Assembly (NCBI RefSeq): GCF_046105845.1
Contig: NZ_CP151004.1
DNA from: Escherichia coli
GTDB taxonomy: Bacteria; Pseudomonadota; Gammaproteobacteria; Enterobacterales; Enterobacteriaceae
Length of the DNA: 64,000 bases
Direction: 5' to 3' (one strand)
How positions within the stretch are numbered: position 1 is the first letter of the stretch; each line of letters opens with the position of its first letter. The notes under the pieces are model-generated. The model saw nothing but the letters and a program-made list of their open reading frames with translations, made no database searches and was not told the DNA's origin. Shown here one piece after another: positions 23,463-23,801 of the stretch. A program made the translations under genes and the position numbers.

Positions 23463-23624
23463 GATTTTTCCTCTTTCACATAGTGGGTTCCACAGCAAAG
23501 AGACGCGGAGCCCCGGAGTTGTTTAGGTATCCGGATGAACAACCAGACCGCAGCCGTGGCGTTGCATCGGATGAGATGGCGTATAAGTTCTACCTTTTGG
23601 TAAGACATGTCAACCCGAAATCTG

Positions 23625-23640
23625 AAATTGGTTAACCACA
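23625..23640. promoter_or_regulatory. Candidate UxuR/ExuR operator in the uxuA-gntP divergent region
   Basis: Palindrome aaattggttaaccaca (TGGTTAACCA core) upstream of uxuA. Confidence 0.35.
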
Positions 23641-23801
23641 TCACAAGAATTTCACTCTCACGGTTGTTGCTGCAAATTGCAGCAAAGGGTAATCGATGGT
23701 TATTGATCAGAGGATGTGACATTCATCGCAACAATGGTTGACCAATTTACATAACATGTCGCCCAAAATAACAACGGTTCAACCAGGTAAGGTAAAACGT
23801 T

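What the first reader, a model, noticed from the sequence alone, without database searches (positions are those of the whole stretch)
23600..23760. Candidate operator palindrome in the uxuA-gntP divergent control region
A 10-bp perfect palindrome, TGGTTAACCA with AAATT flank, sits between the divergent uxuA and gntP genes, where UxuR/ExuR repression is expected.
Basis: inference. Interest (0 to 1): 0.25.

Follow-up and report, generated by a model that had tools for sequence, protein, structure and literature searches.

The report
Known UxuR operator upstream of uxuA
The palindrome is real and is almost certainly the already-studied binding site through which the E. coli repressor UxuR shuts off the glucuronate-utilisation genes uxuAB, so it is an ordinary, previously known regulatory element.

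Summary
TGGTTAACCA is at window 23629-23638, preceded by AAAT. It lies in the 339-bp spacer between uxuA (- strand, ATG 23462) and gntP (+ strand, ATG 23802). The spacer differs from E. coli K-12 MG1655 at 5 bases, none in the motif. A 10-bp palindrome alone means little: the window has 57, about 62 expected. The specific sequence is what matters.

- It matches the functional UxuR operator AAATTGGTATACCAATTT at 13 of 16 specified positions.
- It is one of only three such matches in 64 kb. All three lie in uxu control regions.
- A motif learned from other regulon promoters ranks it second in the window.
- Its core is invariant from Escherichia to Citrobacter while flanking DNA has diverged, and it recurs in Erwinia, Cedecea and Enterobacter.
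- Its 2-nt GT-to-AC gap is the UxuR type, not the ExuR type (3 nt).

That one abuts a ChIP-seq-supported CRP site in the gntP promoter, 106 bp away. The flagged site overlaps a weaker CRP-like site, 15 bp upstream of a conserved TTGACA.

Verdict: reader supported. The element is already known and of low interest. The one open point is whether the conserved 102-106 bp operator spacing reflects cooperative looping.

The parts
23625..23642 (.). Site 1, the finding: uxuA-proximal UxuR-type operator AAATTGGTTAACCAcatc, with the perfect palindromic core TGGTTAACCA at 23629-23638. It equals NC_000913.3 4551456-4551473.
   Evidence: 13/16 to consensus. (14.8 bits, rank 2 in the window with a PWM trained without this region). 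(16/18 columns invariant from Escherichia to Citrobacter; core 10/10). (same core in Erwinia, Cedecea, Enterobacter, Providencia).
23630..23645 (-). CRP-like site TGTGAtgtggtTAACC overlapping site 1. Inferred, not shown to bind CRP.
   Evidence: It scores 10.7 bits with a PWM built from 106 ETEC CRP ChIP-seq sites, rank 9 of about 64,000 positions and above 25% of those sites. TGTGA two bases upstream of the operator core is conserved across genera.
23608..23613 (-). TTGACA, the inferred -35 hexamer of the uxuAB promoter. It lies 15 nt from the operator core.
   Evidence: Invariant in alignment A2. The fixed 15-nt distance from the core holds in seven genera. No transcription start data were available, so the assignment is inferred.
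23585..23590 (-). GAACTT, a candidate weak -10 hexamer 17 nt after TTGACA. This implies a start near 23578 and a leader of about 116 nt.
   Evidence: Read from the sequence. The conserved form GAAyTT is visible. The consensus promoter scan found nothing at its threshold, so this is weak inference.
23731..23748 (.). Site 2: gntP-proximal UxuR-type operator ACAATGGTTGACCAATTT, the mirror image of site 1 with centres 106 bp apart. It equals NC_000913.3 4551350-4551367.
   Evidence: 14/16, the best in the window. (14-nt long-range inverted repeat with site 1, 93% complementary). (14/18 invariant).
23715..23730 (+). CRP site TGTGACATTCATCGCA abutting site 2. It would be centred about -41.5 from the inferred gntP start (class II position).
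   Evidence: A CRP ChIP-seq peak in ETEC H10407 between gntP and uxuA has the predicted site TGCGATGAATGTCACA, which is the reverse complement of this sequence (PMC4287617). It scores 14.2 bits, rank 2 in the window.
23752..23757 (+). TAACAT, the inferred gntP -10 hexamer.
   Evidence: Invariant from Escherichia to Citrobacter. The position fits a class II CRP promoter. Inferred.
20678..20695 (.). Site 3: UxuR-type site AAACTGGTCAACCAAATA in the uxuB-uxuR spacer, 156-173 bp upstream of the uxuR ATG. Likely the autoregulation site.
   Evidence: SELEX reports a second UxuR site within the same operon (PMC5934670).
19749..20522 (-). uxuR, the cognate repressor gene (257 aa; GntR winged-helix domain plus FCD domain).
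   Evidence: Pfam GntR 3.3e-23 and FCD 1.7e-22. Annotation.
22278..23462 (-). uxuA (D-mannonate dehydratase), the first gene of the repressed uxuAB operon.
23802..25145 (+). gntP (fructuronate transporter), the divergent repressed gene.

Best explanation
The palindrome is the uxuA-proximal operator of the E. coli gntP/uxuAB divergent control region, with the same sequence as in K-12 MG1655. A dimer of UxuR binds AAATTGGTTAACCA(catc) through the TGGT/ACCA boxes when no inducer is present. UxuR is a GntR/FadR-subfamily repressor encoded 3 kb away in the same window. Fructuronate or glucuronate releases it, according to the literature. The site lies about -64 to -47 from the inferred uxuAB promoter (-35 TTGACA at 23613..23608) and overlaps a CRP-like site. 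The most likely mode of repression at this site is therefore to deny CRP, and possibly the RNA polymerase alpha subunit, its upstream contact. This probably happens in cooperation with the mirror-image second operator 106 bp away, which covers the -35 region of the CRP-dependent gntP promoter. What is shown: the sequence match, the conservation, the co-occurrence with uxuR, and in vitro UxuR binding somewhere in this spacer. What is inferred: the promoter positions, competition with CRP, and cooperation between the two operators.
For: - Sequence match: 13/16 to the operator AAATTGGTATACCAATTT, which confers UxuR repression and fructuronate induction on a synthetic promoter (PMC8092373; scan).
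- Specificity: the only three sites in 64 kb scoring 13 or more are all in uxu control DNA.
- Independent motif: a palindromic EM motif trained on seven other K-12 hexuronate-regulon promoters, with this spacer excluded, converges on AAtGTGGTATACCACaTT / AAATTGGTTAACCAATTT. Its log-likelihood is 37.5 against 24-33 in shuffles. It ranks this site second in the window at 14.8 bits.
- Footprint: the 18-mer is 92.6% identical between Escherichia and Citrobacter (core 100%), against 28.6% and 43.9% for the DNA on either side.
- Wider conservation: among 80 uxuA loci, the best upstream score is 13 or more in 29, against 2 of 240 control windows inside the coding sequence.
- Link to the regulator: GT-N2-AC sites occur where a close uxuR orthologue is adjacent. 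The N2 spacing is the published UxuR type (PMC4494728).
- Binding: genomic SELEX places purified UxuR in the gntP/uxuA spacer, and glucuronate lowers the binding (PMC5934670).
- In vivo: deleting uxuR derepresses UxuA, and a uxuAB promoter fusion responds to UxuR (PMC9369180).
Against: - No base-resolution footprint of this exact 18-mer could be read here. The key papers (Blanco 1986, Rodionov 2000, Bates Utz 2004, Suvorova 2011) are not in the held library.
- The right flank (CATC) departs from the ATTT consensus.
- The site lies upstream of the inferred -35 rather than over the core promoter, so simple steric exclusion of RNA polymerase is not evident.
- The transcription start is inferred, not measured.
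- Classical genetics also implicates ExuR at uxuAB, and this analysis cannot apportion the roles.
Confidence: 0.9

Rival explanations
1. The site is mainly an ExuR operator, or a site for an ExuR-UxuR heterodimer, rather than for a UxuR homodimer.
For: [quoted passage not shown]
Against: The site has GT-N2-AC spacing, the UxuR type, whereas ExuR sites are GT-N3-AC (PMC4494728). The K-12 ExuR targets uxaC/exuT, exuR and uxaB fit the N3 consensus at 12-13 of 14, while this spacer fits N2 at 13-14 of 16. Purified UxuR alone binds this spacer. Deleting exuR hardly changes the proteome, whereas deleting uxuR raises UxuA.
Confidence: 0.12
2. The conserved block is primarily a class I CRP activator site for uxuAB (TGTGA-N6-TAACC), and the palindrome is a by-product of that site.
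For: TGTGA two bases upstream of the core is conserved from Escherichia to Erwinia and Providencia, at a fixed distance from TTGACA. The 16-mer scores 10.7 bits with a ChIP-derived CRP PWM, rank 9 in the window. uxuA and uxuB are listed among CRP feed-forward targets.
Against: Conservation runs through ACCAATTT, beyond the CRP 16-mer. The right CRP half (TAACC) is poor. The same 18-mer type recurs without TGTGA at partner sites and upstream of uidR and uxuR. The ChIP-seq motif call for this spacer picked the other CRP site. The two roles are not exclusive: a composite site is my preferred reading.
Confidence: 0.08
3. It is a chance palindrome with no regulatory role; it contains the HpaI site GTTAAC.
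For: 10-bp perfect palindromes are frequent: 57 in the window, about 62 expected.
Against: The match to the motif, the restriction of high-scoring matches to uxu control regions, and the cross-genus footprint all argue against chance.
Confidence: 0.01

Closest known systems
UxuR operator of the E. coli K-12 uxuAB/gntP control region (NC_000913.3 4551456-4551473)
   Same: The 18-mer and its surroundings are identical. The window's 339-bp spacer differs from MG1655 at 5 bases, none in either operator. UxuR binds this spacer in genomic SELEX.
   Different: Nothing of substance. The window is simply another E. coli lineage: the best matches are 99.4% identical and most genomes fall at 95-99%.
Consensus UxuR operator AAATTGGTATACCAATTT, used in a fructuronate biosensor (PMC8092373)
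   Same: The left half AAATTGGT and the ACCA box are identical, with the same even GT-N2-AC geometry.
   Different: The central pair is TA instead of AT, and the right flank is CATC instead of ATTT (13/16). The paper attributes its sequence to the uxuR promoter, but the natural uxuR-upstream site here and in K-12 is AAACTGGTCAACCAAATA.
K-12 uidR-upstream site AAATTGGTTAACCAATAG (NC_000913.3 1697164-1697181)
   Same: It carries the same AAATTGGTTAACCA 14-mer, including the perfect palindrome.
   Different: The locus is different (the glucuronidase operon regulator), and the right flank is better (ATAG).
ExuR operators (uxaCA/exuT, exuR, uxaB), e.g. AAAGTGGTATAACAAAT
   Same: The regulator is a paralogue, the TKGT/ACMA boxes are the same, the flanks are A/T-rich, and the pathway is the same.
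   Different: Three bases separate GT and AC instead of two, and the outer half-site is often GTKGT/ACAA.
FadR operator, the founding member of the GntR/FadR subfamily
   Same: A winged-helix dimer reads the TGGT/ACCA boxes of a palindrome (and general knowledge of the family).
   Different: The FadR site has an odd central spacing (GT-N3-AC), a different effector (acyl-CoA) and a different regulon.

Membership tests
UxuR (GntR/FadR-subfamily) operator | A/T-rich palindrome with conserved TKGT / ACMA boxes | tested here: met
   AAAT-TGGT-TA-ACCA-catc. The boxes are perfect and the left flank is perfect. The family definition is from PMC4494728.
UxuR (GntR/FadR-subfamily) operator | Two nucleotides between GT and AC (the UxuR type) | tested here: met
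   The core is TGGT-TA-ACCA. K-12 uxu-type promoters fit the N2 consensus at 13-14 of 16.
UxuR (GntR/FadR-subfamily) operator | Located in the control region of a hexuronate-regulon operon, with the cognate regulator encoded in the genome | tested here: met
   The site is in the uxuA/gntP spacer, and uxuR (GntR plus FCD domains) is at 19749-20522.
UxuR (GntR/FadR-subfamily) operator | Conserved at orthologous positions in related genomes (phylogenetic footprint) | tested here: met
   16 of 18 columns are invariant between Escherichia and Citrobacter, against 28.6% identity in the adjacent spacer. The same core lies upstream of uxuA in Erwinia, Cedecea, Enterobacter and Providencia.
UxuR (GntR/FadR-subfamily) operator | Bound directly by UxuR and released by fructuronate or glucuronate | not testable with these tools
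   The literature shows UxuR binding to the spacer, reduced by glucuronate, but only at SELEX-chip resolution. No base-level footprint could be read.
ExuR operator | Three nucleotides between GT and AC | tested here: not met
   The site has two. It scores only 10/14 against the N3 consensus, a level reached by about 107 positions in the window.
CRP binding site (class I position) | Match to TGTGA-N6-TCACA at about -61.5 from a transcription start | tested here: inconclusive
   The site scores 10.7 bits, at the 25th percentile of ChIP-supported sites, with its centre about -59.5 from an inferred start. There are no binding data for this half of the spacer and no measured start.

The most novel reading that the evidence does not exclude
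The two UxuR operators are not independent, one per promoter, but form a phase-locked pair. A second UxuR-type site lies 102-106 bp (about 10 helical turns) from the TGTGA-operator-TTGACA module in five lineages. It lies upstream of the module in Escherichia and Citrobacter, and downstream of it in Enterobacter R1, Cedecea and Erwinia. The intervening DNA is unconserved, and the distance to the uxuA ATG varies from 27 to 171 bp. This would imply that UxuR dimers bridge the two sites by a DNA loop. Each operator is paired with a CRP site, so the loop would silence both divergent promoters by excluding CRP.
Probability: 0.25. Interest if true: 0.3.

Novelty: already known. Interest (0 to 1): 0.1.

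Why it matters
It matters little beyond annotation. The site belongs to a classical E. coli regulon that has been studied genetically since the 1980s and catalogued by comparative genomics. Confirming it shows that the first-stage reader can recognise a genuine operator from sequence alone. The only points with some forward value are the conserved spacing of about 104 bp between paired operators and the composite operator/CRP module. Both suggest cooperative, loop-based anti-activation, and both could be tested with simple spacer insertions.

Tried and rejected
- Primary papers were unavailable. Bates Utz 2004 (PMC524916), Suvorova 2011 (PMC3147527), Bouvier 2019 (PMC6304669), Robert-Baudouy 1981 (PMC217263) and Mata-Gilsinger 1983 (PMC1202228) are not held. 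'Already known' therefore rests on the papers I could read plus my recollection of these.
- A full-text search for the motif string together with UxuR found nothing. A search for uxuAp, gntPp or uxuRp found nothing useful. The supplements of PMC4494728 held no UxuR site table.
- The sigma-70 consensus scan of the spacer found no promoter at its threshold, so promoter positions are inferred from conservation only.
- Rfam gave no hit in 23300-23950. An RNA element is rejected.
- An unconstrained EM motif search drifted towards A/T-rich words, although its best seeds were the TGGT..ACCA sites. I replaced it with a palindrome-constrained version with shuffled controls.
- A short 34-nt megablast query is limited by the 28-nt word size, so it undercounts genomes: 3787 against 5311 with the 61-nt query. 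I did not use it as a conservation measure.
- I considered an ExuR-type (N3) reading of the conserved CTGGTTGAACC block near the gntP start. It scores only 10/14, which is not distinguishable from background.
- I considered the perfect 19-bp palindrome at 23667-23685 as a third regulator site. It is not conserved outside Escherichia and is degraded in some E. coli, so I left it as an aside.

Full report
**Observation.** The window reads gAAATTGGTTAACCAcatc at 23624-23642. The perfect palindrome TGGTTAACCA is at 23629-23638 and occurs only once in the window. It lies in a 339-bp spacer between two divergent genes.
- The first gene is on the - strand, with its ATG at 23462. It is UxuA (Pfam UxuA, 1.5e-160).
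- The second gene is on the + strand, with its ATG at 23802. It is a GntP-family permease (9.5e-166).
- RefSeq annotation of matching E. coli genomes calls them uxuA and gntP.

The locus order fimF-fimG-fimH-gntP-uxuA-uxuB-uxuR matches K-12 MG1655 in reverse orientation. The spacer differs from MG1655 at five bases, none in the motif. The site therefore corresponds to NC_000913.3 4551456-4551473.

**Is it more than chance?** Palindromy alone is not evidence. The window holds 57 perfect 10-bp palindromes, about the 62 expected. The specific word is expected 0.07 times. The extended motif is far more selective:
- I scored every position against AAATTGGTNNACCAATTT. Only three of about 64,000 positions reach 13 of 16.
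- Those three are 20678-20695 (the uxuB-uxuR spacer), 23625-23642 (the finding) and 23731-23748, which also lies in the gntP/uxuA spacer.
- The relaxed core TGGTNNACCA hits the same three places, against 0.8 expected.

**Match to the known motif.** A synthetic promoter carrying AAATTGGTATACCAATTT is repressed by UxuR and induced through fructuronate (PMC8092373). The finding matches that sequence at 13 of 16 specified positions.

To avoid circularity, I ran a palindrome-constrained EM motif search on seven other K-12 hexuronate-regulon upstream regions: uxuR, uxaC/exuT, exuR, uxaB, uidA, uidR and lgoR/lgoD. The gntP/uxuA spacer was left out.
- The search converged on AAtGTGGTATACCACaTT, AAAGTGGTTAACCACTTT and AAATTGGTTAACCAATTT.
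- The log-likelihood was 37.5, against 24-33 in eight shuffles.
- With that matrix the finding ranks second in the whole window at 14.8 bits. Only the uxuR-upstream site, which was in the training set, ranks higher.
- K-12 also carries the same AAATTGGTTAACCA 14-mer upstream of uidR.

**UxuR or ExuR?** A comparative study of GntR-family motifs states that FadR-subfamily sites have TKGT/ACMA boxes. It also states that the GT-to-AC distance is 3 nt for ExuR and 2 nt for UxuR (PMC4494728). The finding has 2 nt. My scan agrees with this rule.
- K-12 uxaC/exuT, exuR and uxaB fit an N3 consensus at 12-13 of 14.
- K-12 gntP/uxuA, uxuR and uidR fit the N2 consensus at 13-14 of 16.
- Across 80 uxuA loci from other species, N2 sites occur where a close uxuR orthologue is adjacent.
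- Loci of the Enterobacter/Klebsiella type have uxuA divergent from uxuB and no uxuR nearby. These carry TGGTATAACAA (N3) about 23 bp upstream.

The window encodes an intact UxuR with GntR and FCD domains.

**Conservation.** The same gntP/uxuA arrangement exists in E. albertii and in four Citrobacter genomes. In the alignment of these spacers:
- The site 1 18-mer has 16 of 18 invariant columns, and the core has 10 of 10.
- It is 92.6% identical between Escherichia and Citrobacter.
- The 67 bp on one side are 28.6% identical, and the 11 bp on the other side are 43.9%.

Over all 80 loci, the best upstream score reaches 13 or more in 29. Only 2 of 240 equal-sized control windows inside the uxuA coding sequence do so. 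Within E. coli, the 61-bp stretch around the site is present in 5311 of 5426 complete genomes.

**Experimental support in papers I could read.**
- Genomic SELEX with purified UxuR gives a specific peak in the gntP/uxuA spacer. Binding falls when glucuronate is added, and a second site lies within the same operon (PMC5934670).
- Deleting uxuR strongly raises UxuA, and a uxuAB promoter fusion responds directly to UxuR. Deleting exuR changes little (PMC9369180).
- gntP and uxuAB rise on glucuronate and in a uxuR deletion strain (PMC10016265).

The papers that, from my memory, describe these operators at sequence level are Blanco 1986, Rodionov 2000, Bates Utz 2004 and Suvorova 2011. The three I looked up are not in the held library, and Blanco 1986 and Rodionov 2000 have no PMC record to look up.

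**Anatomy of the control region.** It is the mirror image of site 1. The two form a 14-nt long-range inverted repeat, and their centres are 106 bp apart. Each has a perfect outer half (AAATTGGT) and a weaker inner half.

Site 2 abuts TGTGACATTCATCGCA (23715-23730). That sequence is the reverse complement of the CRP site predicted under a CRP ChIP-seq peak between gntP and uxuA in ETEC (PMC4287617). An invariant TAACAT lies at 23752-23757. Taking it as the -10 hexamer puts CRP near -41.5 and site 2 at about -33 to -16. Site 2 would therefore occlude RNA polymerase at gntP. These positions are inferred.

On the uxuA strand, site 1 is part of a module that is conserved across genera: TGTGA, then 2 nt, then TGGTTAACCA, then 15 nt, then TTGACA. 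I built a CRP matrix from 106 ETEC ChIP-seq sites, leaving out the gntP/uxuA site.
- TGTGAtgtggtTAACC (23645..23630) scores 10.7 bits with this matrix.
- That is rank 9 in the window and above a quarter of the ChIP-supported sites.

Suppose TTGACA is the -35 hexamer and the conserved GAAyTT, 17 nt later, is a weak -10. Then site 1 spans about -64 to -47, and the CRP-like site is centred near -59.5. No transcription start data were available, and the consensus promoter scan found nothing. These positions are therefore inferred.

**Mechanism.**
- Shown: a UxuR-type operator is conserved with its regulator, and it lies in a spacer that UxuR binds in vitro.
- Inferred: UxuR at site 1 represses uxuAB by anti-activation, meaning it excludes CRP or the polymerase alpha subunit from the overlapping upstream site. 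Direct occlusion of the core promoter looks less likely.
- Inferred: UxuR at site 1 probably cooperates with UxuR at site 2.
- From the literature: inducer binding to the FCD domain releases the repressor.

**A possibly new detail.** A partner UxuR-type site lies 102-106 bp from the module site in five lineages.
- It lies upstream of the module in Escherichia (106 bp) and Citrobacter (104-105 bp).
- It lies downstream of the module, in the uxuA leader, in Enterobacter R1 (105 bp), Cedecea and 'Enterobacter' Ag1 (102 bp) and Erwinia (103-104 bp).
- The intervening sequence is unconserved, and the distance from the module site to the ATG ranges from about 93 to 171 bp.
- In Erwinia the divergent gene is an MFS transporter resembling ExuT, not gntP.

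This pattern is what helical-phase-dependent cooperation would predict. However, Providencia and a Klebsiella-labelled genome have other spacings (142-157 bp), and the lineages are not independent. I rate this idea at about 0.25. A general discussion of cooperative versus operon-specific double sites in GntR divergons already exists.

**Verdict.** The refinement is that this is a UxuR-type site, one of a mirrored pair, and overlapped by a CRP-like site. It is an already known element of a classical regulon, so interest is low.

Noticed in passing
window 23731-23748: A second UxuR-type operator, ACAATGGTTGACCAATTT, scores 14/16, the best in the window. It is the mirror image of the flagged site, 106 bp away centre to centre, and it abuts the ChIP-seq-supported CRP site at 23715-23730 in the gntP promoter.
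   Followed up: yes
window 23608-23645 (- strand); loci L007-L016, L018, L042, L048, L067: A composite module is conserved across at least seven genera: TGTGA, 2 nt, TGGTTAACCA, 15 nt, TTGACA. This suggests an overlapping CRP/UxuR site at a fixed distance from the uxuA -35 hexamer. The CRP-like 16-mer scores 10.7 bits with a ChIP-derived PWM.
   Followed up: partly
window 23625-23748; L008-L010, L013, L014, L016, L042, L048: Paired UxuR-type sites lie 102-106 bp apart in five lineages. The partner is upstream of the module in Escherichia and Citrobacter, and downstream of it in Enterobacter R1, Cedecea and Erwinia. The intervening DNA is unconserved (28.6% identity).
   Followed up: partly
window 23667-23685: A perfect 9+1+9 palindrome, TTGCTGCAAATTGCAGCAA, lies midway between the two operators. 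The window has four such perfect inverted repeats (gap 0-3) against 1.3 in shuffles. It is absent from Citrobacter, has one arm mutated in E. albertii, and is degraded in E. coli SCPM-O-B-8794. Its function, if any, is unknown.
   Followed up: partly
window 23776-23786: The block GGTTCAACCAG (CTGGTTGAACC on the other strand) lies 16-26 bp upstream of the gntP ATG and is conserved from Escherichia to Citrobacter. It resembles a GT-N3-AC (ExuR-type) box but scores only 10/14, which is not distinguishable from background.
   Followed up: partly
L006 (E. coli SCPM-O-B-8794) 1-3000; L086/L087 (E. coli ET201, NZ_CP100994.1 4003000-4016000): In some E. coli strains gntP is absent. nanM-nanS sit next to the retained spacer, which still carries both operators and the CRP site. 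Only 4531 of 5426 complete genomes have a full-length gntP match, so roughly 16% may carry this or a similar variant. In those strains nanMS may have come under the former gntP promoter.
   Followed up: partly
window 20678-20695: A UxuR-type site, AAACTGGTCAACCAAATA, lies 156-173 bp upstream of uxuR. That is about 68 bp upstream of the start implied by the published constitutive uxuR promoter GTGCCA-17-TATAGT (PMC3946193). A REP-like GC-rich repeat lies between this site and the gene.
   Followed up: partly
PMC8092373 versus window 20678-20695 and K-12 L001 6404-6421: The biosensor paper says its operator AAATTGGTATACCAATTT comes from the uxuR promoter. The natural uxuR-upstream site here and in K-12 is AAACTGGTCAACCAAATA, so the published sequence is in effect an idealised consensus.
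   Followed up: yes
window 23463-23577 versus L008-L011: The uxuA leader is 78 bp longer in Escherichia than in Citrobacter. The extra segment contains a terminator-like hairpin hit at 23514..23500.
   Followed up: no
loci L024-L062 (Enterobacter, Kluyvera, Kosakonia, Citrobacter second copy): A second uxuA type (about 77% identical) is divergent from uxuB. It carries a conserved ExuR-type site, ATATTGGTATAACAACTT, about 23 bp upstream of the ATG, plus a half-site-like AAATTGGTGTGCC about 110 bp further upstream.
   Followed up: no
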